From: Candidatus Zixiibacteriota bacterium
GTDB taxonomy: Bacteria > Zixibacteria > MSB-5A5 > GN15 > JAAZOE01
Length of the DNA stretch: 64,000 nt
Reading direction: 5' to 3'
Assembly (NCBI GenBank): GCA_036480375.1
Contig: JAZGGI010000021.1
Span: forward strand, 10,083 to 74,082
The notes below the pieces were generated by a model. The model was not told the DNA's origin, made no database searches, and worked only from the letters and a program-made list of their open reading frames with translations. How positions within the stretch are numbered: position 1 is the stretch's first letter; every line of letters starts with the position of its first letter. Both the position numbers and the translations under genes were made by a program. Shown here in pieces: positions 3,257 through 29,499 of this stretch.

Positions 3257-6200
3257 GTGGGAATAATGGAAACAACAATGACCAAAAAGACAAAGAGAAC
3301 TCTGCCGTTTATTTTCAAAAAGATATTTACACAATCCGATAGATTTACACTGCTCACCAATGATATAAAAAATGCTTTTGCAAATCAAAATAACGACGCG
3401 GCAATAAATGATAAAAATCATATAAACTTGACCGGTTTGGGCGGCGGCGGAACGGCCTATCTTTTGGCCGGGCTGTACGAAAAGATATCTGGTAATATCC
3501 TGTATGTGACTTCCACCTTTGATGAAGCGCAAAACCTCAATGACGATTTGATCAATCTTATCGGTGAAGATGCCGTTGAGTTCTTCCCCGGTCGTCAGAT
3601 TCCTCCGTATGAATTTCGTTCGCCATCGGGCGAGATAACAGGCCGCAGGTTATCTGCCTTATCAGCCTTGAACAATAATCATAAATCAATCATTGTCGCG
3701 ACCGCTCCGGCGATAATCGAACCGACGGTAGCCAAAGAAACTTTTGAAGCCGAATCACTGCATCTCCGCGTCGGCCTCGAACTCGATCCGAATGAATTGG
3801 CGTTGCGGCTCATCACACTCGGATTCAACCGTGTCGATACCGTTGAGGAAGTCGGCGATTTTGCCGTTCGCGGAGGGTTAATCGATTTCTTTTCGCCGTC
3901 GCACGAGCTACCGATTCGAGCTGAGTTTTTTGGCGATGAGATAGAGTCGCTTCGTCATTTCGATGTTCGCGACCAGCGCACGATAGAAAAATTCGATTCC
4001 ATTGATTTATTGCCTCGCCGCGAAGTTCCCATTAGAGCGGAAACGATTGAAGATCACCTTGAAAAACTGCATGCAAAAGACGCTGATCTGATCCGTGCCC
4101 GATTTCTATCCGAGCCGGACTTGCCCGGTCTGGAATGGCTCGCGGCCGCCTTCGGGATCGCTCGCGGTTCGGTTCTCGATTATCTGAAAGAGGATACTCT
4201 GATAATCCTCGACGGCGGCAGCGCTCTTCTGGGCGATATGAAAGACGCCTACGAAACCGGATCGGAACATTATGATAAAGCAAAAAACCGTTTAGTTAAA
4301 CCTCCCGAAATCGACACTTATTACTACACTCCCGAAGCGCAGTATCATCGCCTGACCAAAAACGTTTGCTGTATTATCCATCCTTTTCGTTCCAGGGAAA
4401 ATGCCCGCTTCGATTTCGGATGCGCCGAACATCCGGCTATCGGCAGCCGCCTTGACTATCTATCCGAAGTCATCGAAAAATACAAAAATCAGGGATACCA
4501 AACCGTCATCACCTGCGACAATAAGGGCCAGGCCGAACGGTTGGCCGAAATTTTGGGCGAGAGAAAAATCAATGTCCCTGTTGAAGTCTTTCACATCCAT
4601 GCCGGGTTCGTCTCGGATGAACTAAAATTCGCTCTTCTAACCGACCATCAGATATTCTCTCGCCGCTTCCGCCGCATCAAACGCCGCCGTTACAAAGAAG
4701 GCGTCGCCCTGACGTCGTATTCAAATCTGAACCAGGGAGATATCGTCGTGCACGCCGATTATGGCCTGGCGCGCTTTTCCAAACTGGAATCAATCACCGT
4801 GGACAGCCGCACCCGCGATTGCCTCCTTTTGATTTACAAAGACGGCGACAAACTGTACGTCCCGATTGAAGAATTCAACCGGGTTTCCAAATATGCCGGC
4901 AAAGACGCCAAACCAAAACTGACCAGCCTCGGTTCGCCAGCCTGGGAAAAAGTAAAGAAGCGAACCAAAAAAGCGCTGGCGGACATGGCCGAGGAATTGT
5001 TGAAATTATACGCCGAGCGGAAAATGAAACCGGGATTCAAATTCGATGAGGATACCGTCTGGCAAAAACAACTCGAGGCTTCGTTTGCCTACGAAGAAAC
5101 TCCCGACCAGATGAAAGCCATCAACGACGTCAAGCGCGATATGCAGACCGATAATCCGGCCGACCGTCTCGTGTGCGGGGATGTCGGATACGGCAAAACC
5201 GAAGTCGCCGTGCGGGCCGCCTTCAAAGCGGTTGAAAACGGTAAGCAGGTAGCGGTACTCGTACCCACGACGATTCTGGCGCAGCAACATTTCAGTACTT
5301 TTTCAAAACGGCTTAAAGAATTCCCGATGCGGATTGAAGTGCTATCACGATTCAAAACCCGAAAAGAGCAGAAAGCGATTATAGAAGATATCGCCGGGGG
5401 TAAGGTCGATATCGTCATCGGGACGCATCGCCTGCTTTCCAAAGATATCTTTTTTGCCGACCTGTGTCTTCTGATCGTTGACGAGGAGCAGCGGTTTGGC
5501 GTGGCGCATAAGGAAAAACTACGCAAACTCAAACAAAATGTCGATACCATTACGCTGACGGCGACGCCGATTCCGCGCACTCTCCAGCTTTCGATGATGG
5601 GCGCGCGCGATATGTCGCTTATCAATACTTCGCCGCGCGACCGCCTTCCGATTCAGACCGAAATTATTGAATTCAATCCTCAGCTTATGGCCGAGGCGAT
5701 CCTGCGTGAAATCGACCGCGATGGCCAGGTTTATTTTGTGCATAACCGCGTGCAGACGATTGAGGCGATGTATCGCTATCTCAAAAAATTCCTGCCGCAG
5801 GTCGAAATCGCCATCGCGCACGGACAGATGCATGAGAGGGAACTGGAAGGCGTCATGCTCGCTTATCTGGCCGGGCGGTTTCAGGTACTGCTGTGCACCT
5901 CGATTATTGAATCGGGTCTCGATATCCCCCGGGTCAATACTATTATAATCAACCGCGCCGACCGTTTTGGTCTGGCACAGCTTTATCAACTCCGGGGACG
6001 AGTCGGGCGTTCGCCCCGGCGAGCTTACGCCTATCTGGTGACCCCGCCGTATCGCCTGATGTCCAACGATGCCCGCAAGCGGATGCGGGCGATTGAAGCC
6101 CATTCCGATCTCGGCTCGGGTTTCGCCTTGGCGATGCGCGATCTGGAAATCCGAGGCGCCGGGCAGATCCTGGGCAAAAAACAATCGGGTTTTATCGAGG

Positions 6201-6724
6201 ATATTGGATTCGATTTATATACCAAACTTCTTGAAGAAGCCGTTGCCGAACTCAAGGGCGAAAAAATCGAACGCCTGCCGGACACCAAACTGGAAGGCAA
6301 ACTCGATTTATATCTGTCCGATGATTACGTCAATATCAAACAGCAGAAAGTCGATATCTACCGGCGGCTGGCCGACTGCGTCAAGCTCGACCAGATTGAA
6401 AAAATCAGGGAAGAGGTCGAAGACCGCTTCGGGAAGATGCCCGCCAAGGCCGAAGAATTTTTTGATGCTACGGCGCTTCGGTTAATGGCGGCGATATGCG
6501 GCGTTGAGCGCGTCATCGTCAATAACTTGAGAATAAAAATCGAATTTCCACCTTCGCTTGAAGTCACCCGGCCGTTTATTGAGCAAATCCGCAAAGCCAT
6601 TGACGCCCCGGTCGAATTTTCCCTGACCGGTAATTTCAACATCACCGTTGATTTGTCAAGCATCAACGCCAAAGACAGATTGAAATACATGAAAAAAGCG
6701 CTTGGGGAGATAGGGGTGAGGTAG
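3257..6724 (+). CDS. mfd: Transcription-repair coupling factor Mfd
   Basis: 1155-aa ORF. It has a UvrB-homology N-terminal region, a CarD/RNAP-interacting region (GDIVVHADYGLARF), and superfamily-2 translocase motifs (GDVGYGKTEVA, DEEQRFG, TATPIPRT, QLRGRVGR). The true start may be the ATG at 3266. Confidence 0.95.
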   Translation: MGIMETTMTKKTKRTLPFIFKKIFTQSDRFTLLTNDIKNAFANQNNDAAINDKNHINLTGLGGGGTAYLLAGLYEKISGNILYVTSTFDEAQNLNDDLINLIGEDAVEFFPGRQIPPYEFRSPSGEITGRRLSALSALNNNHKSIIVATAPAIIEPTVAKETFEAESLHLRVGLELDPNELALRLITLGFNRVDTVEEVGDFAVRGGLIDFFSPSHELPIRAEFFGDEIESLRHFDVRDQRTIEKFDSIDLLPRREVPIRAETIEDHLEKLHAKDADLIRARFLSEPDLPGLEWLAAAFGIARGSVLDYLKEDTLIILDGGSALLGDMKDAYETGSEHYDKAKNRLVKPPEIDTYYYTPEAQYHRLTKNVCCIIHPFRSRENARFDFGCAEHPAIGSRLDYLSEVIEKYKNQGYQTVITCDNKGQAERLAEILGERKINVPVEVFHIHAGFVSDELKFALLTDHQIFSRRFRRIKRRRYKEGVALTSYSNLNQGDIVVHADYGLARFSKLESITVDSRTRDCLLLIYKDGDKLYVPIEEFNRVSKYAGKDAKPKLTSLGSPAWEKVKKRTKKALADMAEELLKLYAERKMKPGFKFDEDTVWQKQLEASFAYEETPDQMKAINDVKRDMQTDNPADRLVCGDVGYGKTEVAVRAAFKAVENGKQVAVLVPTTILAQQHFSTFSKRLKEFPMRIEVLSRFKTRKEQKAIIEDIAGGKVDIVIGTHRLLSKDIFFADLCLLIVDEEQRFGVAHKEKLRKLKQNVDTITLTATPIPRTLQLSMMGARDMSLINTSPRDRLPIQTEIIEFNPQLMAEAILREIDRDGQVYFVHNRVQTIEAMYRYLKKFLPQVEIAIAHGQMHERELEGVMLAYLAGRFQVLLCTSIIESGLDIPRVNTIIINRADRFGLAQLYQLRGRVGRSPRRAYAYLVTPPYRLMSNDARKRMRAIEAHSDLGSGFALAMRDLEIRGAGQILGKKQSGFIEDIGFDLYTKLLEEAVAELKGEKIERLPDTKLEGKLDLYLSDDYVNIKQQKVDIYRRLADCVKLDQIEKIREEVEDRFGKMPAKAEEFFDATALRLMAAICGVERVIVNNLRIKIEFPPSLEVTRPFIEQIRKAIDAPVEFSLTGNFNITVDLSSINAKDRLKYMKKALGEIGVR

Positions 6725-6747
6725 ATTTCTACGCAGTTCAAGCTTCG

Positions 6748-9700
6748 CTATTTTTTATCAGTTGCCTCGTCTTCATTATTATTCACATCGAATAATGCCA
6801 ATAATTTTCTAATTTCCTGTTCATCAGGGTATTTATTGGCCAATTCATTCAGCTCTTCATACAATTGTTGCACCTGCTCAAGCTCTCCCTTATTACCGTA
6901 AATAGTAATCAAATTGTAGGCGCCTTTTGCCTGTTCCAGTCTTATTTCCGGCTCATCAGAGTACTTATCGGCCAGCGCCCCCAGCTCATCATATAATTTC
7001 CGCGCCTTCGCAACCTCACCCATATTGGCGTAAGCGAAAATCAAATTGTAGGCGCCTTGCGCCTGTCTCAGTCTTATTTCCGGCTCATCGGGGTAATTAC
7101 CGGCCAGCGCCCCCAGCTCATCATATAATTTCCGCGTCTTCGCAACCTCACCCATATTGGCGTAAGCGAAAATCAAATTGTAGGCGCATTTTGCCTGTGC
7201 CAGTCTTATTTCCGGACCATCGTATTTGTCGGACAGAGCCGAAAGATCGTCATATATTTCCTGAGCCTTGGCAAACTTTTCCTTTTTATAGTAATAAATT
7301 GTCAAATTGTAGGCGCCTCGTGCATGTGTCAGTCTTATTTCCTGTTCATCGGGATATTTACCGGCCAGCGCCGCCAGCTCATCATATAATTCCCGCGCCT
7401 GCTCAACCTCTCCCTTATTACCGTAAGCCAATATCAAATTGGCGGCGCCTTGTGCCCGTGCCAGTCTTATTTCCTGTTCATCGGGGCACTTACCGGCCAG
7501 CGCCGCCAGCTCATCATATAATTTCCGCGCCTGAGCAACCTCTCCCTTATTGCCGTAAGCTGAAATCAAATTGACGGCGCCTTTTGCCCGTGCCGGTCTT
7601 ATTTCCGGTTCATCGGGGTATTTACCGGCCAGGGCCGCCAGCTCATCATATAATTTCCGCGCCTGCGACAACTCATCCTTATTGCCGTAAGCTAAAATCA
7701 AATTGTAGGCGCCTTTTGCATGTATCAGTCTTATTTCCTGTTCATCGGGGTAACTACCTGCCAGCGCCGCCAGCTCATCATATAATTCCCGCGCCTGCGG
7801 AAGCTTACCCTTATTGGCGTAATCATTAATCAAATTGAAGGCGCCTTTTGCCTGTTCCAGTCTTATTTCCGGCTCATCAGAGTACTTACCTGCCAGCGTT
7901 GCCAGCTCATTATACAACTGTGCCGCCTGCGCAATCTCACCCTTATTGGCGTAAGCTGCAATCAAATTGACAGTGCCTTGTGCCCGTGCCAGCCTTATTT
8001 CCGGCTCATCGGGGTATTTACCGGCGAGGGCCGCCAGCTCATCATATAATTCCCGCGCCTGCGGAAGCTCATCCTTATTGGCGCAAATGGTAATCAAATT
8101 GACGGTGCCTTTTGCCCGTGATTTACGAATCAAGGAGGAATCTTTATACCGGGTCGCGAGAGTTTTTAAATCCTCGTAGTAGGATCGTGATTGTTCCAGT
8201 GAGAATTTTGCGCCGCCGTAATATAGAATATTGATTGCCAAAATTGACCAGAGAGTTGTCTCCTCTTCGGAGCGGTCCGCACATTTCAGGATATGGGCAA
8301 GAATCTTATGATCATGAAAATCTCTGATACATCGGTTTAAAAAGTCCGCAAAACCGGACGGGGAGATTTTCCATGCAATCCGCCGCATTTTTTCGGCAAT
8401 ATTATTAAGTTCCGGATGACCGCTGTCCAGGTGCTTAAGAACAAAATACTCGCCGATGATATCGGGTTCCAGCGGCGGCAGAGTGTCGCTTATCCGACTG
8501 CCCGACATTTTTTCAAATTTCTCAGTATTAAAATTCGCGGGAGATGGAAGTGATAAATCACTGTCGTTATTTTTAAGATATGCAATTGGAAGATGCCCGG
8601 TCATAGTCGCCAATGCCAGCAGATTCTTATAGGTTTGGCCTTCGTCGCCCAATAGCCAGAACTCATTTTCTTCCCGCTCCAGCACATCGTCCAGCAGACG
8701 GGTTTTATCCCATGCGTAAATATCCTGATTATGCACGACCGCTTCAGCCGCGAGAGTTCCGTACAACGGACGGCATTCGGGATCTATTTTCCTCAGTGAT
8801 TGTAAAAATTCGGATTTATTCGGTAGGGTCTTATTATGGCCCTTGATTACAAAAGACGCCAGGCCCCAAACGTCATCTTCCGAAAAAGAAGGCAAATTGA
8901 GCGGTTCGTCAAAACGGATCTCTTCAATTATGTACTTTGAACTGCCGCTTCCCAGGAATTTATCGTACCATTGACCCTCGGCGTCTCTCTCCAGTATCAA
9001 AAATCTGACAGGGCATGGAAAAGGTTTATTTCGCTGCGCCAAAGACAGGATAGCGGAACGAACATCGGAAGTTCGTTTGGCGGCATAGTCGATTATGATA
9101 AGCGTGGGCCCGTCCGGTTCCCAATCCACCCAGTCGGCGAATTTGTTAGATTCCGGAAGAAAGCCAACCCGCCACGGTTGGCCATTTCTTAAACAAAACT
9201 CCAGCGCCAGGCGGCTTTTACCCATTCCGCCGGATCCGATTGCAATCCACCACGAAAATGCTTTTGGAGCGTTAAGAAAATCCTGCAAACGATTTTTTTC
9301 ATACTCCCTGCCAATAAAAGGTACGCGGCGGGCTCTGAAATTGAGCCGGGATGCAGGCGCCACGGATAACAGTTTCAGTTCCAGGGAAGGTTGAGGACGT
9401 ATAACCGATTCCAAATCAGCAATCAGATTTTTCAGGTCGGTTTTTATTTCGTCAGTATCGGATAGTGTCTTGAGTGTAGTTCTCAATTCGGCGGACAGAG
9501 CATCGCCGAATTCCGCGTCTCGCACCGGACGCTCTCCTGATAATATCTTTTCCAGTAATTGGCGGTCCTGGTTTTTATTATCCAGTGTGGATTTTAATTT
9601 CATTACCTGCCCGGCGATCTCATTATAGTAGGGCACCTTTTGAACAATTTTACTTAATCGTTCGGTGGCATTTTTCGACAGCCATTTTCCGGCTACGCCC

Positions 9701-9894
9701 GCGCTGAGAACCACCAGCTTGGCAAGAAGTCTGAATACTATGCTGATATATATTTTGGGGAAGGAGGTTTCTTTATGAATCCAGTCGATAATTTGCGCGG
9801 CCGTATCGGAATCGGACAAATATTTTGCCAAATCATCGCTTATAATATGATCGACAATTGTATTGGGATTCAAATCCTGCTTGGGCGTAGACAA
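6748..9894 (-). CDS. STAND/NLR-like P-loop NTPase with an N-terminal helical domain and a C-terminal array of 44-aa TPR/Sel1-like repeats
   Basis: 1048-aa ORF with three signatures.
- Walker A: IGSGGMGKSRLALEF (aa 219-232).
- Walker B-like: TLIIIDYA (aa 264-271), then RFLILER.
- About 10.5 tandem 44-aa helical repeats over aa 569-1048. Confidence 0.75.
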   Translation of the reverse strand: MSTPKQDLNPNTIVDHIISDDLAKYLSDSDTAAQIIDWIHKETSFPKIYISIVFRLLAKLVVLSAGVAGKWLSKNATERLSKIVQKVPYYNEIAGQVMKLKSTLDNKNQDRQLLEKILSGERPVRDAEFGDALSAELRTTLKTLSDTDEIKTDLKNLIADLESVIRPQPSLELKLLSVAPASRLNFRARRVPFIGREYEKNRLQDFLNAPKAFSWWIAIGSGGMGKSRLALEFCLRNGQPWRVGFLPESNKFADWVDWEPDGPTLIIIDYAAKRTSDVRSAILSLAQRNKPFPCPVRFLILERDAEGQWYDKFLGSGSSKYIIEEIRFDEPLNLPSFSEDDVWGLASFVIKGHNKTLPNKSEFLQSLRKIDPECRPLYGTLAAEAVVHNQDIYAWDKTRLLDDVLEREENEFWLLGDEGQTYKNLLALATMTGHLPIAYLKNNDSDLSLPSPANFNTEKFEKMSGSRISDTLPPLEPDIIGEYFVLKHLDSGHPELNNIAEKMRRIAWKISPSGFADFLNRCIRDFHDHKILAHILKCADRSEEETTLWSILAINILYYGGAKFSLEQSRSYYEDLKTLATRYKDSSLIRKSRAKGTVNLITICANKDELPQARELYDELAALAGKYPDEPEIRLARAQGTVNLIAAYANKGEIAQAAQLYNELATLAGKYSDEPEIRLEQAKGAFNLINDYANKGKLPQARELYDELAALAGSYPDEQEIRLIHAKGAYNLILAYGNKDELSQARKLYDELAALAGKYPDEPEIRPARAKGAVNLISAYGNKGEVAQARKLYDELAALAGKCPDEQEIRLARAQGAANLILAYGNKGEVEQARELYDELAALAGKYPDEQEIRLTHARGAYNLTIYYYKKEKFAKAQEIYDDLSALSDKYDGPEIRLAQAKCAYNLIFAYANMGEVAKTRKLYDELGALAGNYPDEPEIRLRQAQGAYNLIFAYANMGEVAKARKLYDELGALADKYSDEPEIRLEQAKGAYNLITIYGNKGELEQVQQLYEELNELANKYPDEQEIRKLLALFDVNNNEDEATDKK
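6751..8190. repeat. Intragenic tandem repeat, 132-bp period, about 10.9 copies (encodes the 44-aa repeats of the STAND protein)
   Basis: The string caaattgtagg recurs at 6910, 7042 and 7174, exactly 132 bp apart. Neighbouring units are near-identical by eye, for example 6950-7080 versus 7082-7212. Confidence 0.9.
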
Positions 9895-9989
9895 TCAGAT
9901 TCTCCTTTTGACCTTTGAATATATGCCCTGCAATATAACTACCAAGAAATAATATATACTTAATTCATACCAAAAAGCAAGGAATTTTG

Positions 9990-10122
9990 CTTTTGCCTCC
10001 ACCCTCCGGAGGCAACCGGGCGGCTCGCGAGCCGCCCCTGCAGGAGATTGATGTCATAGCCCGTAATCAACATCGATTTGATATGCCCCAAAACGTTAAT
10101 TTGAGGAAACAAACCCATTTTG
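9990..10122. repeat. Intergenic repeat element, copy A (GC palindrome plus conserved flanking module)
   Basis: The perfect palindrome gggcggctcgcgagccgccc (10018-10037) is followed by ctgcagg. The 16-mer ttgatatgccccaaaa (10078-10093) is identical to 63375-63390, and the surrounding ~50 nt are clearly homologous. Confidence 0.5.
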
Positions 10123-10351
10123 ATAAACTGATTTTAGGCCAATCCGGATTTTTTTTGGCAATTAGGAATTAATTATTGCATCTACCAGGCATATTTCAAA
10201 TTCGCGGTTAGGGTCAGGATACTCAACATTGCCCGGTAAAAGGCTCTCATGCGAACGATAAAATGGGAAAAAACAGACCCGCCGGAAAACACCGGTCCCT
10301 CTGAAGAAGATTACAGGACTGAAGACATTGTCTTAAAGAATTTATGATCGT

Positions 10352-11236
10352 TTATTCTTGTCTTTTATATTGGAATGAGTCAAACGGCTCAAGAAGAATA
10401 TGGGCGTCCGGCATGTGCTCCTTAAAGATGTTAATATATTGCTCCTGTACTTTGGCGTCGGGAGTAAAATGCATAAATACAATTTCCTCAGGTTCGATAA
10501 TATTAAAAAAGACGTTCTGGGATTCAGCACTGATATCGTAAAATCCGATGAATAGAATATCGGTTTTAACGCCTTCATCACGCAGTTTCTGAAAACAGCT
10601 TTCGTGATTTTTCAGCCGCGCGTCACCGATATGCATAATATTATTGCCGTTGATAGTGAAGAGGTATCCCAGGTTTTGAGTATGTGCATGCTTATCGTAC
10701 TGTTCCCCGGTTTCTTCATCGGTTATCATGTATGAACCATGAGCCAGACCAAGCGCGCGGATTGAAATATCAGAGATGACGATTTCAACCCATAAATCTT
10801 TTTCGGGCGCAAGTGCTATTACCCGCTCGCTTATTAATTCGAAATTTGAACATGAATCCCGGAGCATCTCGAAAACCTGGGACGGGCCCACCAGAATGGC
10901 ATCCCTATTAGATTCCAGATGTCTCGCGGCAGAAACCGGATCAAAATGATCGAAGTGCCTGTGGGTAACGAAAACAATATCAATATCATCGAAGGGCGGT
11001 AACGCCTGCTCCATTTTTTCTAAGGTGCTATCAGACGGCCCATAATAATATTGTTCGTCGCCTTCAATATTAAAAATGGCGTCAATCAATACTTTCTTAT
11101 CCGCTGATTGTATGAGATAGCCGTCGCTGGCGATGTATGTCACGGTTACATCGGAATATCGCTGACCCTGGCAGCCGGTAATTGTAATCAGAATAGAAAC
11201 AAATATAATAAAGGTAAAAATCCGTTTCGACTTCAT
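10352..11236 (-). CDS. MBL-fold metallo-hydrolase, probable lipoprotein
   Basis: It carries the HxHxDH motif (THRHFDHFD). The N-terminus MKSKRIFTFIIFVSILITITGC has a lipobox-like ITGC. The start is taken at the internal Met (ORF track start is 11251). Confidence 0.7.
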   Translation of the reverse strand: MKSKRIFTFIIFVSILITITGCQGQRYSDVTVTYIASDGYLIQSADKKVLIDAIFNIEGDEQYYYGPSDSTLEKMEQALPPFDDIDIVFVTHRHFDHFDPVSAARHLESNRDAILVGPSQVFEMLRDSCSNFELISERVIALAPEKDLWVEIVISDISIRALGLAHGSYMITDEETGEQYDKHAHTQNLGYLFTINGNNIMHIGDARLKNHESCFQKLRDEGVKTDILFIGFYDISAESQNVFFNIIEPEEIVFMHFTPDAKVQEQYINIFKEHMPDAHILLEPFDSFQYKRQE

Positions 11237-11339
11237 AATAGTGCCTCCCAAGTGATTATTCGATAATTAGGACGTGGAATAAATCTAAGTGTTTTAAATA
11301 ATTCCATCGAATGATTCTTAAAAATATTAACCGAACTTG

Positions 11340-11849
11340 TTACTTCTTCCGATTCACGGCCACGATGATTAAAGCGATAGCGATCAGGGCAACTGTGGCA
11401 ATGATAACTATCGGCATACCAATATCAATTTCGCCTTTGGCTGAAAAGATAATAAGAAAAAGTATTCCTATTGCAAGAAATACAATACCCAGAATACTCA
11501 CGACTAATGCTCCGGCACCAACACCGACATTCGTACGATATGGATCGGTTTCGCGGAACTGATCGTTCTTTCGTTCATCAATTCGTCTCTTAAACCGAAC
11601 CCTGTTATTATCGAATTTTTCAACAAGTTCCCAACCTGACTTAGCTTCTTCCTCAATTACTTTTCTCAGGTTATCAGGTTTTCTGAAATACTCCGTATTT
11701 GCTCTAACGATTTTGAATTCCCAATCCTTCAGATCATCCGAATTATAATTGGTCATTATTTCTTCCTCCTTGCGGAGCATCTCAGCTCGTTTAGCTGCGG
11801 CGACGGCAGCGATCACGCCGCCGGTCACGGCGGGTGTTACTCCGGACAT
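11340..11849 (-). CDS. Hypothetical membrane protein (DUF4177-like soluble domain plus C-terminal TM helices)
   Basis: 169-aa ORF. The WEFKIV...GWELVEKFDNNRVRFKRR pattern resembles DUF4177. Two hydrophobic C-terminal segments follow. Confidence 0.4.
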   Translation of the reverse strand: MSGVTPAVTGGVIAAVAAAKRAEMLRKEEEIMTNYNSDDLKDWEFKIVRANTEYFRKPDNLRKVIEEEAKSGWELVEKFDNNRVRFKRRIDERKNDQFRETDPYRTNVGVGAGALVVSILGIVFLAIGILFLIIFSAKGEIDIGMPIVIIATVALIAIALIIVAVNRKK

Positions 11850-12074
11850 ATTTCCTCCATTTTAATCAATATACCGAAAACCAACAATAAAACTCAAATC
11901 TTTATTAAAAAATACAGCTAATCCCCTTGACAATAAGGACATACGAGTAATAAAAAATATATAAATCCTCCATTCTGTGATTGCCTTTTGCGTTGAAAAC
12001 CCGTATTATAAGAATCTGTTATAGCCTGCCTTAATTGGCGTAACTTGTTTTAATAAAGAGAGATAAGTAGCAAT

Positions 12075-14576
12075 ATGGACTTACAGCATCAGAAAATTAT
12101 CCCGATTTTTCTCGAAGAGGAAATGAAAAATTCATACTTAGATTATTCCATGTCGGTTATTACCAATCGAGCCCTGCCGGATGTCCGCGATGGTCTTAAA
12201 CCATCCAACCGTCGCATCCTCGTGGCCATGCATGAATTAAATCTTTCTCCCGGACGGCCTCATCGAAAATGCGCTAAAATCGCCGGTGATACCTCCGGTA
12301 ATTATCACCCGCACGGCGAGCAGGTTGTTTATCCGACGCTGGTTCGTATGGCTCAGGATTTCAATATGCGCTATCCCCTGGTGGATGGACAGGGTAATTT
12401 CGGTTCCATTGACGGCGACGGCGCCGCGGCTATGCGATATACCGAAGCCCGGTTGACCCCGATAGCGATGGAGATGATGGTCGATATCGAAAAAGAAACC
12501 GTTGATTTCATACCCAACTACGACGGGACTCTGAAAGAGCCGACGGTTTTACCGGGACGATTTCCTGATCTGATATGCAACGGGACAACCGGCATCGCGG
12601 TCGGTATGGCGACAAGCATCGCGCCGCATAACCTGACTGAGATATGCGCCGCCATAAATGCCATAATCGAAGATCCCGAAGTTGATAACGAATCACTTAT
12701 GGAAATAGTCCCCGGGCCGGATTTTCCCACCAGCGGAATTATATACGGCCGCGAAGGCATCAAAGAGGCGTATAGAACAGGCCGTGGAAGAATTACTCTG
12801 CGGGCCCGAGCCGTCACCGAAAAACAAAAAAATGGCAAAGAGCATATTGTCATCACAGAAATTCCGTTTCAGGTTAATAAATCCAGCCTTTTGATGCGCA
12901 TTGCCGATCTGGTGCGCGACAAAAAGCTGATCGGCATATCCGACCTGCGTGATGAATCGGATCGTGACGGTTTAAGAATCGTTGTCGAACTCAAGCGCGA
13001 CGCCCAGCCTGAAATCGTACTCAATCAGCTTTACAGCCATACCAATCTACAGACGACATTCTCGATAATTAATCTGGTTCTGGATAAAGGCGTCCCGAAG
13101 TTACTATCTCTGAAAAACCTTCTGGAATTATACATTGACCATCGTCATGAAGTTGTCGTCCGACGGACCAGGCACGATCTGCGCAAAGCTGAAGCCCGGG
13201 CTCATATTCTTGAAGGTTACAAAATAGCGCTGGATAATATCGATGCCGTAATAGCTCTTATTAAAAAGTCAAAGTCCGTTCCCGATGCCCGGGAAGGCTT
13301 GATAAAGAAATTCAAATTATCCGAGATTCAGGCCAATGCCATTCTCGAAATGCGGTTGCAGAAACTGACCGGGCTGGAACGTGAAAAAATTGAAAAAGAG
13401 TATCTTGAAACCATAAAAAAGATCGAGGAATACAAATCGATTTTGGATTCCAAGCCGCGCCGGATGCGTATTATCCGGGACGAAGTCAAGGATCTCAAGA
13501 AGAAATACGGCGATGATCGGCTGACCGAGATTATCGACGAAACCGAAGACTTGACGATTGAGGATTTGATTGCCGATGAAGAAATGGTTATCACCATCAC
13601 TCATACCGGATATATCAAATCACTTTCGGTCTCAGCGTACCGGAGGCAAAACCGGGGCGGCAAAGGCGTCATCGGTATGGAAACCAAAGAAGAAGATTTC
13701 GCCGAGCATGTCTTTATCGCCACCTCGCATCAGTATATCCTGTTTTTTAGCACAATCGGGCGATGTTACTGGGTTAAAGTGCATGAAATACCACGGGGAG
13801 GGCGCCTCGCCAAAGGCCGGCCGATCGTCAATATGTTAAAATTATCGCAGGGCGAAAGAATCTCGACCTTTACCCGTGTGCGGGAATTTACTCCGGATAA
13901 ATATATTATCATGGCCACCCGCAATGGTGTCATCAAAAAGACTTCGCTGGATTCATATTCCAATCCTCGCGTCACGGGAATTAATGCCATAACGCTCCGC
14001 AAAGGCGATGAGCTGATTCGTTGCGCCCTAAGCGACGGAACCAACGATATCCTCCTCGGAACCCGCAAAGGTCAGGCAATACGATTCCCCGAAGATAAAG
14101 TCCGGGCGATGGGACGTACCGCCGCCGGCGTCAAGGCTATTAAACTCGGCAAAGGCGATGAAGTTGTCGGGATGGTTGTCATCAAGCGCCAATCGACCAT
14201 TCTGGCCGTAACCGAAAACGGATACGGCAAGCGGACCAGCGTGGCCGACTACCGTATAACCAACCGCGGCGGGAAGGGCATCATCAATATCAAATGTTCC
14301 GAGCGCAACGGCAATGTCGTTGCGGTCAAGGAAGTGCTCGATGATGATGAACTTATCATGATGACCAAAGGCGGAATCGCCAATCGCATGGCGGTCAAAT
14401 CGGTCAATACTATCGGCCGCAATACTCAGGGCGTGCGAATGATTTCGCTCAAAGGCAAAGATAAACTGACCGACGTCGCGGTTGTCTTCGGCAGCCGAAA
14501 GAAACTGGCCGAAAACGGCAACGGTAACAACGGTAATAATAATGCTAATGAGAATCAGGAAGAATTAGACGTTTAG
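12075..14576 (+). CDS. gyrA: DNA gyrase subunit A
   Basis: 833-aa ORF with the conserved N-terminus YLDYSMSVITNRALPDVRDGLKPSNRRIL, the active-site region AAAMRYTEARL, and C-terminal beta-pinwheel repeats. It ends in an Asn/Gly-rich tail. Confidence 0.97.
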   Translation: MDLQHQKIIPIFLEEEMKNSYLDYSMSVITNRALPDVRDGLKPSNRRILVAMHELNLSPGRPHRKCAKIAGDTSGNYHPHGEQVVYPTLVRMAQDFNMRYPLVDGQGNFGSIDGDGAAAMRYTEARLTPIAMEMMVDIEKETVDFIPNYDGTLKEPTVLPGRFPDLICNGTTGIAVGMATSIAPHNLTEICAAINAIIEDPEVDNESLMEIVPGPDFPTSGIIYGREGIKEAYRTGRGRITLRARAVTEKQKNGKEHIVITEIPFQVNKSSLLMRIADLVRDKKLIGISDLRDESDRDGLRIVVELKRDAQPEIVLNQLYSHTNLQTTFSIINLVLDKGVPKLLSLKNLLELYIDHRHEVVVRRTRHDLRKAEARAHILEGYKIALDNIDAVIALIKKSKSVPDAREGLIKKFKLSEIQANAILEMRLQKLTGLEREKIEKEYLETIKKIEEYKSILDSKPRRMRIIRDEVKDLKKKYGDDRLTEIIDETEDLTIEDLIADEEMVITITHTGYIKSLSVSAYRRQNRGGKGVIGMETKEEDFAEHVFIATSHQYILFFSTIGRCYWVKVHEIPRGGRLAKGRPIVNMLKLSQGERISTFTRVREFTPDKYIIMATRNGVIKKTSLDSYSNPRVTGINAITLRKGDELIRCALSDGTNDILLGTRKGQAIRFPEDKVRAMGRTAAGVKAIKLGKGDEVVGMVVIKRQSTILAVTENGYGKRTSVADYRITNRGGKGIINIKCSERNGNVVAVKEVLDDDELIMMTKGGIANRMAVKSVNTIGRNTQGVRMISLKGKDKLTDVAVVFGSRKKLAENGNGNNGNNNANENQEELDV

Positions 14577-28803: not shown

Positions 28804-29499
28804 TTATTTCTTCTTGTCGCCTTCTTCTTTCTTCTCTTCGCCTTCTTCTTTCTTTTCTTCACCTTCAGCGCCCTCTTCGCCTTCAGCGCCTTCTTCGCCT
28901 TCAGGCTCTTCTTCTTCAGCAGCTTCAACTTCCTTGATGACCGTCGGAGCGCTAATAGTTACGATGGTGCGAACAGCGTCGGTTATTACATCCACTTTAT
29001 CAAGCTCAATATCCGAAACGTGAATTGATTCCCCGATGTTCAGATGAGAAATATCAATTTCGATTTTTTCGGGTATTTCGGCCGGCAAACATGAAATTTC
29101 GATTTCACGCCTGATATTCTGAACGACACCGCCAAAGTTTTTAACGCCTTCAGGGATACCAACCGTTATGACGGGAATCGTAATAGTAATCGGTTGATCC
29201 ATCGAAATATTGTGAAAATCAAGATGCAAAAGCTCGCCCGAAACGGGATCCTTTTGCAATTCCCGAATGAGGACTTTGCGAGCCGGTTCGTCCATTCCGT
29301 CAATTTCAAGATTAATAATCGTTGATAGGGGAACGCCGTGCATTAATTGATACAGTTCGCGGTAATTAACCTGAATCGAAATCGGTTCCGTATTCGGACC
29401 ATATATAACCGCGGGGATGTTTCCTTCACCGCGCAGACGGCGATTGAAACCTTTTCCAGTGTTTTCCCGTTTGGAAACTTTCAGATTAAGTTCTTTCAT
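28804..29499 (-). CDS. rplY: 50S ribosomal protein L25 / general stress protein Ctc with an acidic low-complexity tail
   Basis: The N-terminus LNLKVSKRENTGKGFNRRLRGEGNIPAVIYG is canonical L25/Ctc. The C-terminal tail is EEEEPEGEEGAEGEEGAEGEEKKEEGEEKKEEGDKKK. Confidence 0.9.
   Translation of the reverse strand: MKELNLKVSKRENTGKGFNRRLRGEGNIPAVIYGPNTEPISIQVNYRELYQLMHGVPLSTIINLEIDGMDEPARKVLIRELQKDPVSGELLHLDFHNISMDQPITITIPVITVGIPEGVKNFGGVVQNIRREIEISCLPAEIPEKIEIDISHLNIGESIHVSDIELDKVDVITDAVRTIVTISAPTVIKEVEAAEEEEPEGEEGAEGEEGAEGEEKKEEGEEKKEEGDKKK

What the first reader, a model, noticed from the sequence alone, without database searches (positions are those of the whole stretch)
6751..8190. Highly internally conserved 132-bp repeats with variation focused at a few codons
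**Repeat pattern**
- Aligning the 44-aa units by eye (consensus ARELYDELAALAGKYPDEPEIRLARAQGAYNLIxAYGNKGEVAQ) shows most columns nearly invariant.
- Three spots vary strongly: around positions 24-25 (LA/EQ/IH/PA/TH/AQ/RQ), 29-30 (TV/AF/AY/AV/AA) and 33-35 (IAA/IND/ILA/ISA/TIY/IFA/ITI).
- Adjacent DNA units are near-identical, for example the two units between 6950 and 7212. This implies recent duplication or gene conversion.

**Interpretation**
- The same signature is described for fungal and some bacterial NLR repeat domains (highly conserved repeats with hypervariable ligand-contact residues). It suggests rapid diversification of a binding surface.

**Caveat**
- Short-read assemblies often collapse or mis-order such arrays, so the copy number here is uncertain.
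Basis: partly seen in the sequence, partly recalled or inferred. Interest (0 to 1): 0.6.

Follow-up and report, generated by a model that had tools for sequence, protein, structure and literature searches.

The report
Bacterial NLR-like sensor with shuffling repeats
The repeats are real and form the sensor arm of a bacterial immune-receptor-like ATPase, with differences between copies concentrated on the predicted ligand-binding groove; this pattern is already described for fungal and some bacterial receptors, so it is a good new example rather than a new principle.

Summary
The array is real. It has ten 132-bp (44-aa) units plus a half unit at window 6802-8190, on the minus strand. It forms the C-terminus of a 1048-aa ORF (6748-9894).

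The protein has three parts: a rare, unannotated helical N-terminal domain, a STAND-type P-loop NTPase, and a TPR-like solenoid (AlphaFold2 pLDDT 91). The host is a Zixibacteria MAG. The gene lies in a 4.6-kb segment that a related MAG lacks.

- Units 2-10 are 72-90% identical in DNA and 67% in protein.
- Exact shared runs reach only 50 bp.
- Unit 1 is divergent.

Variation is nevertheless focused on columns 24, 25, 27, 30, 34, 35 and 37. These align to TPR positions -2, -1, 2, 5, 9, 10 and 12, most of which are canonical concave-face ligand positions.

The same columns vary in at least 11 independent homologues (141 nonsynonymous versus 22 synonymous changes; Fisher p=1e-6). Units resemble each other more within a protein than between proteins, and a gene-conversion test is significant.

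Homologues carry nuclease, SIR2, protease or esterase domains in the N-terminal slot, which fits an NLR/Avs-like sensor.

An independent assembly breaks inside the array, so copy number beyond unit 6 rests on one assembly.

Verdict: a new member of a known kind.

The parts
6748..9894 (-). Whole gene: 1048-aa STAND/NLR-like protein with a TTG start (stop codon 6748-6750)
   Evidence: ORF list and translation. The public annotation uses the same start (P0001). 86 homologues were found. The AlphaFold2 model has pLDDT 91.2 and pTM 0.81.
9902..9906 (-). Shine-Dalgarno AGGAG, 7 nt upstream of the TTG start
   Evidence: Read directly from the sequence.
9337..9894 (-). N-terminal all-helical domain (aa 1-186) of unknown function, in the effector position
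   Evidence: No Pfam match. No fold match in PDB or BFVD. Only 181 clusters among 1.84 billion representatives, nearly always at the N-terminus of 600-1300-aa proteins. About 30 of the 86 homologues share it.
8890..9327 (-). P-loop NTPase core (aa ~190-335). Walker A GSGGMGKS is at 9214-9237, Walker B LIIIDYA at 9082-9102, and the FLILER motif with invariant R303 at 8986-9003.
   Evidence: Motif coordinates. Invariant G223, G225, K226, D269, R297 and R303 across 52-60 homologues. Weak nSTAND_NTPase5 and AAA_16 hits. 27 of 52 family members hit nSTAND_NTPase5.
8275..8889 (-). Helical post-NTPase region (aa ~336-540), presumed winged-helix/ARC-like arm of the STAND module
   Evidence: Helices in the model. 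Conserved motifs RPLF, LLALAT and PLEPDIxGExFVL. Weak NB-ARC hits to this region in relatives. The best PDB fold match is the STAND-TPR protein 6mfv_A.
8191..8268 (-). Degenerate capping helix ('unit 0', aa ~543-568) that starts the solenoid
   Evidence: Model helix 543-560, sequence TLWSILAINILYYGG, resembles helix A of the units.
6874..8190 (-). Ten 44-aa (132-bp) TPR-like units. Unit 1 is 8059-8190, 2 is 7927-8058, 3 is 7795-7926, 4 is 7663-7794, 5 is 7531-7662, 6 is 7399-7530, 7 is 7267-7398, 8 is 7138-7266 (43 aa), 9 is 7006-7137 and 10 is 6874-7005.
   Evidence: Tandem Repeats Finder, unit coordinates, and a two-helix unit in the model.
6802..6873 (-). C-terminal half unit (helix B only, aa 1008-1031) that caps the solenoid; a short acidic tail follows at 6751-6801
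   Evidence: HMM hit to model positions 2-24; translation.
6729..11339 (.). 4.6-kb segment holding this gene and an MBL-fold hydrolase gene (10352-11251, minus strand). It is absent from a related Zixibacteria MAG, where mfd and DUF4177-gyrA are about 250 bp apart.
   Evidence: Gene order of L071. blastn/tblastn boundaries: window 6012-6728 and 11340-12200 align to adjacent parts of L071.

Best explanation
**What it is.** The array encodes the sensor arm of a three-part NLR-like STAND NTPase in a Zixibacteria genome.

**Structure of the sensor (shown, except the last step).** Each 44-residue unit is an elongated TPR-type helix pair, with helix A of 20 residues and helix B of 17. The ten and a half units stack into a solenoid. 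By TPR geometry, helix A lines the concave groove; this step is inferred.

**Pattern of variation (mapping to the groove is inferred).** The framework residues and a conserved Asn ladder (column 31, TPR position 6) stay nearly constant. The groove-facing positions differ from unit to unit: columns 24, 25, 27, 30, 34, 35 and 37, which are TPR positions -2, -1, 2, 5, 9, 10 and 12. These set ligand specificity.

**How the array evolves.** It evolves in concert by unequal recombination and gene conversion between units. This keeps the scaffold alike, changes unit number, and reshuffles the specificity residues. Mosaicism and within-greater-than-between similarity are shown here. Unit-number change is shown only in homologues.

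**Likely function (inferred by analogy with NLR/Avs proteins, not shown).** Ligand binding in the groove would release autoinhibition. The NTPase would then drive oligomerisation and activate the N-terminal domain. Here that domain is an uncharacterised helical domain. It occupies the slot where homologues carry Cap4 nuclease, SIR2, trypsin-like protease, DUF676 esterase or DUF4062 domains. The most likely role is defence or conflict sensing that ends in growth arrest or cell death.
For: **Architecture**
- Walker A/B and invariant R297/R303 are conserved across 52-60 homologues.
- The full-length model has pLDDT 91.2.
- The best PDB fold match is a STAND-TPR protein, 6mfv_A.
- 27 of 52 relatives hit nSTAND_NTPase5.

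**TPR nature and position mapping**
- Pfam TPR_14 scores 52.8 bits, with column 32 at model position 7.
- The unit aligns without gaps to the CTPR consensus from column 26 = position 1. Score 39 versus 22.3 +/- 4.8 for shuffles; 12 of 2000 reach it.
- TPR positions 2, 5, 9, 12, 13, 33 and 34 are concave-face, ligand-contacting and hypervariable (PMC1261162).
- Helix A lines the groove (PMC5642895).

**Focused variation**
- Entropy and codon tables.
- pN exceeds overall pS at columns 34 (2.7x), 24 (2.2x), 30, 35 and 37. Whole-unit pN/pS is 0.70.

**Replication in relatives**
- The same columns are hypervariable in P0019, P0018, P0021, P0024, P0031, P0017, P0030, P0039, L007, L008, L009, L004 and others.
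- In 11 other proteins, the columns chosen from the window give 141 nonsynonymous to 22 synonymous changes. The rest of helix A gives 104 to 61. Fisher p=1e-6, omega about 1.5, binomial p=0.027.

**Concerted evolution**
- Sawyer-type test: SSCF 9205 versus 6431 +/- 395, with 0 of 2000 permutations reaching it.
- Best unit match is 74% within the protein and 59% to other proteins.
- About 30 of 68 related loci carry their own DNA-level arrays of period 120-132 bp at 72-97% identity.
- Orthologues at 83-92% NTPase identity differ by whole units: 766, 808 and 894 aa with 4, 5 and 7 units.

**Conflict role**
- Effector domains are swapped in homologues.
- The gene sits in a 4.6-kb segment missing from a related MAG.
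Against: - No known effector domain was found. The N-terminal domain has no Pfam, PDB or BFVD match.
- There is no PADLOC hit.
- The neighbours are housekeeping genes (mfd, gyrA), not a defence island.
- In this array alone, omega above 1 is not significant (binomial p=0.2).
- Units differing at groove positions is also what any non-periodic binding surface needs, so it does not by itself show ongoing diversification.
- Identity among units (67% protein) is below the 80-90% typical of the described class.
The concave-face assignment therefore rests on alignment to TPR numbering and helical periodicity, not on measured geometry.
- Units 7-10 are supported by one assembly only.
Confidence: 0.65

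Rival explanations
1. The protein is a non-immune STAND signalling or scaffold protein. The array is a recent in-situ duplication, and the variable columns are simply solvent-exposed positions under relaxed constraint. There is no diversifying selection and no defence role.
For: - Housekeeping neighbourhood, no PADLOC hit, and no recognisable effector.
- Omega at the variable columns is not significantly above 1 in this array.
- Whole-unit pN/pS of 0.5-0.7 could reflect relaxed constraint after duplication.
- Lee et al. (PMC13581612) note that defence and non-defence STAND clades are interspersed.
Against: - Exposed helix-B (convex) positions vary less than the groove positions. The same few groove columns recur in many independent lineages, with 141 to 22 nonsynonymous to synonymous changes.
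- Homologues carry nuclease, SIR2, protease or esterase domains in the same slot.
- The gene is accessory relative to a close relative.
- Unit number differs among close orthologues.
Confidence: 0.2
2. The copy number or order of the units is an assembly artefact. The true array is longer, shorter or differently ordered than in the window, although a repeat array does exist.
For: - The public contig JAZHCH012420634.1 is identical to the window from 9894 down to about 7363. It then ends in 100 unrelated bases, exactly at the unit 6/7 boundary where 39-40-bp exact repeats occur.
- Several relatives' contigs end inside their arrays: L014, L018, L020, L024 and L045.
- Short-read assemblies of such NLR repeats are documented as unreliable (PMC12222747).
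Against: - The longest exact repeat inside the array is 50 bp, and units differ at 10-28% of bases. Reads of 150 nt or k-mers above 50 should resolve the path.
- The reading frame is intact through all units and ends in a proper capping half unit.
- Two assemblies agree base for base over units 1-6.
- Long-read and complete genomes of relatives show comparable arrays, L007 with 10.7 copies and L008 with 14.4.
Confidence: 0.12
3. The focused variation is produced by a dedicated mutagenic system such as a diversity-generating retroelement that targets the repeats.
For: DGR-diversified sensors fused to STAND-type conflict proteins are known in bacteria (PMC7159879; bioRxiv 10.1101/2023.09.22.558884, listed).
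Against: - No second copy of the unit (a possible template repeat) exists anywhere in the 64-kb window.
- The variable codons show no adenine-specific pattern (codon table).
- The pattern recurs in many unrelated genomes as unit-to-unit differences, not as one variable region.
Confidence: 0.02

Closest known systems
Fungal NLRs with highly internally conserved TPR, ANK or WD repeats (Podospora HNWD/het-e family; Dyrka et al. 2014, PMC4986451)
   Same: - Three-part layout: effector, STAND NTPase, repeat sensor.
- Tandem repeats alike at the DNA level.
- Variation concentrated at a few concave-face positions.
- Concerted evolution by unit shuffling.
- Repeat-number differences between close relatives.
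- Short-read assembly problems.
   Different: - The NTPase is neither NACHT nor NB-ARC. It is closest to nSTAND5, and only weakly.
- Units are 44 residues, not 42.
- Internal identity is 67% in protein (72-90% in DNA), below the 85% criterion.
- The host is a bacterium, and no allele data exist.
- The N-terminal domain is unrelated to HET, HeLo and similar domains.
Bacterial NLRs with internally conserved TPR or WD repeats (noted by Dyrka et al. 2020, bioRxiv 10.1101/2020.01.06.895854; 42PR proteins of Marold et al. 2015, cited there)
   Same: A bacterial STAND plus TPR-like repeats with unusually high internal identity, proposed to diversify rapidly.
   Different: - Those were NB-ARC or NACHT proteins, mainly from filamentous Actinobacteria and Cyanobacteria.
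- This family lies outside those Pfam families. It is spread over Alphaproteobacteria, Magnetococcales, Bacteroidota, Planctomycetota, Zixibacteria and others.
- Per-column hypervariability mapped to TPR ligand positions was not, in the papers I read, shown for bacterial examples.
Antiviral STAND (Avs) pattern-recognition receptors (Lee et al. 2026, PMC13581612)
   Same: Effector-NTPase-TPR-like sensor layout. Homologues carry typical Avs effectors: SIR2, Cap4-type nuclease and protease.
   Different: - There is no PADLOC match.
- No defence-island context was seen.
- Characterised Avs sensors recognise conserved phage protein folds. They are not described as homogenised tandem arrays with hypervariable groove residues.
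- No phage target is known here.
PH0952-type STAND-TPR protein (PDB 6mfv)
   Same: It is the best structural match to the full-length model (Foldseek E=6.6e-7): a P-loop STAND module followed by TPRs.
   Different: Only 13% identity, TM-scores of 0.2-0.3, canonical divergent TPRs, and no tandem DNA-level repeats.

Membership tests
STAND NTPase / NLR-like architecture | P-loop NTPase with Walker A (GxxxxGK[ST]) and Walker B (hhhhD) | tested here: met
   GSGGMGKS at aa 220-227 and LIIIDYA at aa 265-271. G223, G225, K226 and D269 are invariant in 52-60 homologues.
STAND NTPase / NLR-like architecture | Conserved Arg after strand 4 (an hhhxxR motif, as in NB-ARC and NACHT), followed by a helical, winged-helix-like arm | tested here: inconclusive
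   FLILER with invariant R303. A helical region spans aa 339-560 in the model. Relatives give weak NB-ARC hits to this arm. The best fold match is 6mfv_A, but with low TM-scores. I had no domain-level superposition.
STAND NTPase / NLR-like architecture | C-terminal superstructure-forming repeats and a variable N-terminal effector slot | tested here: met
   Ten and a half TPR-like units. Homologues carry Cap4 nuclease, Trypsin_2, DUF676, DUF4062 or SIR2_2 at the N-terminus.
Pfam PF25199 nSTAND_NTPase5 | Score at or above the curated gathering cut-off (34 bits) | tested here: not met
   The query scores 22.8 bits, E=8.9e-5. 27 of 52 relatives match at E<=1e-3, best 1.9e-9. It is the nearest Pfam NTPase family, but the query is not a certified member.
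NLR repeats with high internal conservation (Dyrka 2014 criterion) | More than 85% identity between units over at least 100 aa | tested here: not met
   Units 2-10 average 67% protein identity (maximum 84%) and 72-90% DNA identity. Some homologues meet it: L008 94%, L018 96% and L014 97% DNA matches.
NLR repeats with high internal conservation (Dyrka 2014 criterion) | Concerted evolution: units more alike within a gene than between orthologues, with a mosaic or gene-conversion signal | tested here: met
   Best unit match is 0.74 within and 0.59 between. Sawyer-type SSCF test, 0 of 2000 permutations.
NLR repeats with high internal conservation (Dyrka 2014 criterion) | Positive selection at a few positions on the binding surface | tested here: inconclusive
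   Window alone: omega about 1.8-2.1, binomial p=0.2. Eleven other proteins pooled: omega about 1.5, p=0.027, with Fisher p=1e-6 for nonsynonymous:synonymous against other helix-A codons. These are minimal-change counts, not a recombination-aware codon model.
NLR repeats with high internal conservation (Dyrka 2014 criterion) | Repeat-number polymorphism among alleles or strains | not testable with these tools
   The next-closest protein to the query after its own copy is 41% identical, so no strain comparison is possible. In a homologue cluster at 83-92% NTPase identity, unit number is 4, 5 and 7.
Tetratricopeptide repeat (TPR; 34PR/42PR classes) | Helix-turn-helix unit with the TPR signature (small and large residues at positions 7/8, 11, 20, 24, 27) | tested here: met
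   TPR_14 scores 52.8 bits against a cut-off of 23.5. The ungapped alignment to CTPR shares Y5, N6, L7, A10, Y11, G15, A20 and Y24. The unit is two helices in the model. PPR models also score above their cut-offs, so the unit is a consensus-like alpha-solenoid repeat rather than uniquely TPR.
Tetratricopeptide repeat (TPR; 34PR/42PR classes) | Unit length of 34 (canonical) or 42 residues | tested here: not met
   The unit is 44 residues (one of 43), with helices of 20 and 17 residues. Relatives use 40, 42, 43 or 44. In the nPR naming of PMC5642895 this would be '44PR'.
Antiviral STAND (Avs) defence systems | Match to a curated defence-system model, or location among defence genes | tested here: not met
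   No PADLOC hit. The neighbours are mfd, an MBL-fold hydrolase, DUF4177 and gyrA. The gene is, however, in an accessory 4.6-kb segment.
Antiviral STAND (Avs) defence systems | Demonstrated protection against phage, or activation by a phage protein | not testable with these tools
   This needs experiments.
DGR variable-region target | Template repeat and reverse transcriptase nearby; adenine-specific variation | tested here: not met
   No other copy of the unit in the window. The codon table shows no adenine-specific pattern. I did not search the window specifically for a reverse transcriptase.

The most novel reading that the evidence does not exclude
This gene belongs to a widespread, undescribed clade of bacterial STAND receptors. 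The clade is nSTAND5-like and has a private N-terminal helical domain found in only about 180 sequence clusters. Its members independently keep 40-44-residue TPR-like arrays in a state of concerted evolution. They vary exactly the canonical TPR ligand-contact positions (2, 5, 9, 12, and -1/-2) around a fixed Asn ladder. On this reading the clade is a bacterial counterpart of the fungal rapidly-diversifying NLR repertoire. It would use shuffling of near-identical modules to generate new specificities, rather than fixed recognition of conserved phage folds as in characterised Avs proteins. The N-terminal domain would be a new cell-death or signalling effector.
Probability: 0.3. Interest if true: 0.65.

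Novelty: new member of a known kind. Interest (0 to 1): 0.45.

Why it matters
**Why it would matter if true.** The array would be a natural, modular, reprogrammable binding surface. Its scaffold is fixed, with a conserved Asn ladder and about seven specificity positions per unit. That would show bacteria using the same repeat-shuffling route to new receptor specificities that fungi use. It would occur in a STAND clade and in phyla (Zixibacteria and many unicellular Proteobacteria) where this has not been examined.

**Practical points.**
- It marks a family where short-read assemblies systematically break.
- It supplies a rare uncharacterised N-terminal domain as a candidate new effector.
- It gives a directly testable set of specificity residues.

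**Limit.** The principle itself is already published for fungal NLRs and has been noted for bacterial ones.

Tried and rejected
- **PADLOC scan of the protein:** no hit.
- **NCBIfam:** only spurious sub-threshold hits.
- **N-terminal domain:**
  - Pfam at E<=10 gave nothing credible.
  - A separate AlphaFold2 model (pLDDT 72) gave no Foldseek match in PDB (best E=2.1) or BFVD (best E=1.1).
  - A transmembrane-helix reading was rejected. The query segment scores 2.04 on Kyte-Doolittle, but homologues score 1.06-1.55 and carry conserved charges.
  - N-terminal extensions in four relatives have no recognisable domain.
- **Model coordinates:** these are not exposed. I could not measure solvent exposure or concavity. 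I used alignment to TPR numbering and helical periodicity instead.
- **Kaur et al. 2020/2021:** I read them for a prior description of near-identical repeats in nSTAND proteins and found none.
- **MBL-fold hydrolase as a conserved partner:** rejected, because no homologue lies next to the STAND gene in any of 68 related loci.
- **3-unit super-repeat** (396-bp row in Tandem Repeats Finder): the identity matrix does not show that unit i and unit i+3 are consistently closest.
- **Compositional anomaly of the inserted segment:** none (GC 0.43-0.50 against 0.45-0.52 in the flanks).
- **Metagenome scan for strain variants:** not run. The 5.8-billion-protein search found only the gene's own truncated copy, and the next hit was 41% identical.
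Full report
**1. The observation**

Tandem Repeats Finder reports one array at 6808-8120, with period 132, 10.0 copies and 80% matches. The array lies on the minus strand, inside ORF 6748-9894 of 1048 aa.

A profile built from the units finds ten 44-aa units at 6874-8190 and a half unit at 6802-6870. It finds nothing else in the window.

The degree of conservation was overstated:
- Units 2-10 are 72-90% identical in DNA, and unit 1 only about 55%.
- Protein identity among units 2-10 averages 67%, with a range of 51-84%. Eleven of 44 columns are invariant.
- The longest exact shared runs are 50, 50, 40 and 39 bp.

Variation is nevertheless focused. Columns 34, 24, 30, 35 and 25 are among the most variable. 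Seven columns (24, 25, 27, 30, 34, 35, 37) carry 37% of the entropy. They are 28% identical between units, against 75% for the rest. Columns 42, 43, 2, 3 and 9 also vary, though less.

**2. The protein**

The protein has the following parts:
- aa 1-186: an all-helical N-terminal domain.
- aa ~190-335: a P-loop NTPase, with Walker A GSGGMGKS, Walker B LIIIDYA, and FLILER with R303. These residues are invariant in 52-60 homologues.
- aa ~336-540: a helical arm.
- From about aa 543: a solenoid of helix pairs.

The full-length AlphaFold2 model is confident (pLDDT 91.2, pTM 0.81). It gives each unit a 17-residue helix (columns 42-44 and 1-14) and a 20-residue helix (columns 19-38).

The best PDB fold match is the STAND-TPR protein 6mfv_A (E=6.6e-7). 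Pfam gives sub-threshold nSTAND_NTPase5 (22.8 against 34 bits) and AAA_16 hits. Twenty-seven of 52 relatives hit nSTAND_NTPase5.

The repeats score above threshold for TPR_14 and for PPR models. They resemble consensus-designed TPR/PPR proteins and kinesin light chain in the PDB.

A Shine-Dalgarno AGGAG sits 7 nt before the TTG start.

**3. Which face varies**

The unit aligns without gaps to the 34-residue consensus TPR, with column 26 at TPR position 1. The score is 39, against 22.3 +/- 4.8 for shuffles. This agrees with the Pfam alignment, which puts column 32 at position 7.

On that numbering:
- The variable columns 27, 30, 34 and 37 are TPR positions 2, 5, 9 and 12.
- Columns 24 and 25 are the two residues before helix A, the counterpart of positions 33 and 34.
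- The invariant Asn31 is position 6.

Magliery & Regan found positions 2, 5, 9, 12, 13, 33 and 34 to be the most variable in TPRs. All lie on the concave face. Positions 2, 5, 6, 9, 12 and 13 contact ligand in HOP (PMC1261162). Helix A lines the groove in 34- and 42-residue TPRs (PMC5642895).

Helical periodicity agrees. At 100 degrees per residue, the variable columns (except 25) and Asn31 share one arc. I21, A26, G28, A29, L32, I33 and Y36 lie on the other arc. This is my own calculation from the sequence.

I could not measure this on coordinates, because the model file is not exposed. The concave-face assignment is therefore an inference.

**4. Selection and recombination**

Between units, pN/pS is 0.70 overall. 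pN exceeds the overall pS at columns 34 (2.7x), 24 (2.2x), 30, 35, 37, 42, 43, 2, 25, 9 and 27.

With so few units this is not significant (binomial p=0.2).

A Sawyer-type permutation of polymorphic sites shows that identity tracts between units are longer than chance. SSCF is 9205 against 6431 +/- 395, with 0 of 2000 permutations reaching it. The maximum fragment test gives P=0.017. This indicates gene conversion or recombination among units.

**5. Relatives**

A search of 5.8 billion proteins found 86 homologues. The closest, apart from the gene's own copy, is 41% identical.

Many carry known conflict effectors in the N-terminal slot: Cap4 dsDNA endonuclease, Trypsin_2, DUF676 esterase, DUF4062 and SIR2_2. 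About 30 share the query's N-terminal domain.

A scan of species-representative genomes found 68 loci. They come from Alphaproteobacteria, Magnetococcales, Bacteroidota, Planctomycetota, Chloroflexota, Actinomycetota and others.

About 30 of these loci have their own DNA-level arrays of period 120-132 bp at 72-97% identity. Examples are a complete Oceanicaulis alexandrii genome (129 bp x 10.7 copies) and a long-read MAG (126 bp x 14.4 copies, 94%).

Within these proteins the same columns are the variable ones. I took the columns chosen from the window and tested them only on 11 other proteins. They show 141 nonsynonymous to 22 synonymous changes, against 104 to 61 for the rest of helix A. Fisher p=1e-6, omega is about 1.5, and binomial p=0.027.

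Units match best within their own protein: 0.74 within against 0.59 between for the query, and 0.96 against 0.63 for L007. A second group of family members shows the opposite, 'frozen' pattern: P0005/P0008 and P0007/P0010 have about 0.4 within and 0.8-0.9 between.

Orthologues at 83-92% NTPase identity differ by whole units (766, 808 and 894 aa with 4, 5 and 7 units). The frozen pairs keep their length.

**6. Genome context and assembly**

GyrA of the window is 100% identical to a protein annotated from a candidate division Zixibacteria MAG. Its nearest relatives are all Zixibacteria.

The neighbours are mfd, an MBL-fold hydrolase, DUF4177 and gyrA. In a related Zixibacteria MAG (Mfd 91% identical), mfd and DUF4177-gyrA are adjacent. 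Window 6729-11339, which holds the STAND gene and the hydrolase, is therefore an accessory 4.6-kb segment. Its base composition is not unusual. The hydrolase is not a conserved partner.

The public metagenome contig JAZHCH012420634.1 is identical to the window down to about 7363. It then ends in 100 unrelated bases, so its annotated 860-aa protein (P0001) is a truncated chimera.

The break falls where 39-40-bp exact repeats occur. Several relatives' contigs also end inside their arrays. This matches the documented unreliability of short-read assemblies for such genes (PMC12222747).

Units 1-6 are thus confirmed by two assemblies, and units 7-10 by one. Because no exact repeat exceeds 50 bp, the window's path is plausible.

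**7. Interpretation**

The best-supported reading is an NLR/Avs-like STAND sensor. Its TPR-like groove carries the specificity residues, and its array evolves in concert.

The activation steps are inferred from the family, not shown here. They are ligand binding, NTP-dependent oligomerisation and effector activation.

The N-terminal domain remains unexplained:
- It has no Pfam match.
- It has no fold match in PDB or BFVD.
- It has only 181 clusters among 1.84 billion representatives, almost always at the N-terminus of this architecture.

**8. Comparison with what is known**

High internal repeat conservation, hypervariable concave-face positions and unit shuffling were established for fungal NLRs (PMC4986451). 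The same was noted for bacterial NB-ARC/NACHT NLRs with 80-90% identical units (bioRxiv 10.1101/2020.01.06.895854).

This gene works like those, but it differs in four ways:
- The NTPase clade is different.
- The unit has 44 residues.
- Internal identity is below the formal 85% criterion.
- The N-terminal domain is uncharacterised.

I therefore rate it a new member of a known kind. What this work adds is evidence that the pattern recurs across this STAND family, at positions matching the canonical TPR ligand contacts.

Noticed in passing
window 6729-11339: The STAND gene and an MBL-fold hydrolase gene (10352-11251, minus strand) form a 4.6-kb segment. It is absent from a related Zixibacteria MAG (L071), where mfd and DUF4177-gyrA are about 250 bp apart. 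I saw no integrase, flanking repeat or compositional shift.
   Followed up: partly
L001 12533-12632 (public contig JAZHCH012420634.1, last 100 nt); corresponds to a break at window ~7363: The public metagenome contig ends in 100 bases unrelated to the window. Its annotated 860-aa protein (P0001) therefore has a false C-terminus (KWSGPGKFAGRSAIQQ). Only a 15-mer of that tail matches the window, near position 111.
   Followed up: partly
window 9337-9894 (aa 1-186): The N-terminal helical domain has conserved YLxDSD and GxRPxxD motifs and a PQP linker. It has no Pfam or fold match and only 181 clusters in 1.84 billion representative proteins. It is a candidate new effector or adaptor domain.
   Followed up: partly
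related proteins P0005/P0008 and P0007/P0010 versus P0019/P0021/P0024, L007 and L008: The family splits into two regimes. In 'frozen' arrays, units are about 40% alike within a protein but 76-90% alike to the positional counterpart in an orthologue. In 'homogenised' arrays, units are 74-96% alike within a protein and unit number changes between orthologues.
   Followed up: partly
L014, L018, L020, L024, L045 (3' ends of the loci): In at least five related genomes the contig ends inside the tandem array. Short-read assemblies seem to break at these genes systematically, so the family's repeat numbers are under-recorded in databases.
   Followed up: no
window 6927-7574 and 7584-7829, plus strand: Long antisense ORFs (215 and 81 aa) run through the array on the opposite strand. 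They are most likely a by-product of the repetitive codon composition rather than genes.
   Followed up: no
window 7001-8000: There is a strong local GC skew (-0.19) and AT skew (-0.17) over the array compared with its flanks. This probably reflects the repeated codon usage of the units.
   Followed up: no
window 28807-28914: Two short overlapping tandem repeats (21 bp x 2.9 copies and 18 bp x 3.3 copies, 88-89% matches) lie at the 3' end of minus-strand ORF 28804-29499.
   Followed up: no
L007 7744-9153 (Oceanicaulis alexandrii strain ac9, complete genome): This cultivable relative has a 129-bp x 10.7 array with a clear 3-unit (387-bp) super-repeat at 90% identity. Three unit types alternate and differ mainly at columns 24, 25, 30, 34 and 37-39. 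It is a convenient experimental model for this family.
   Followed up: partly
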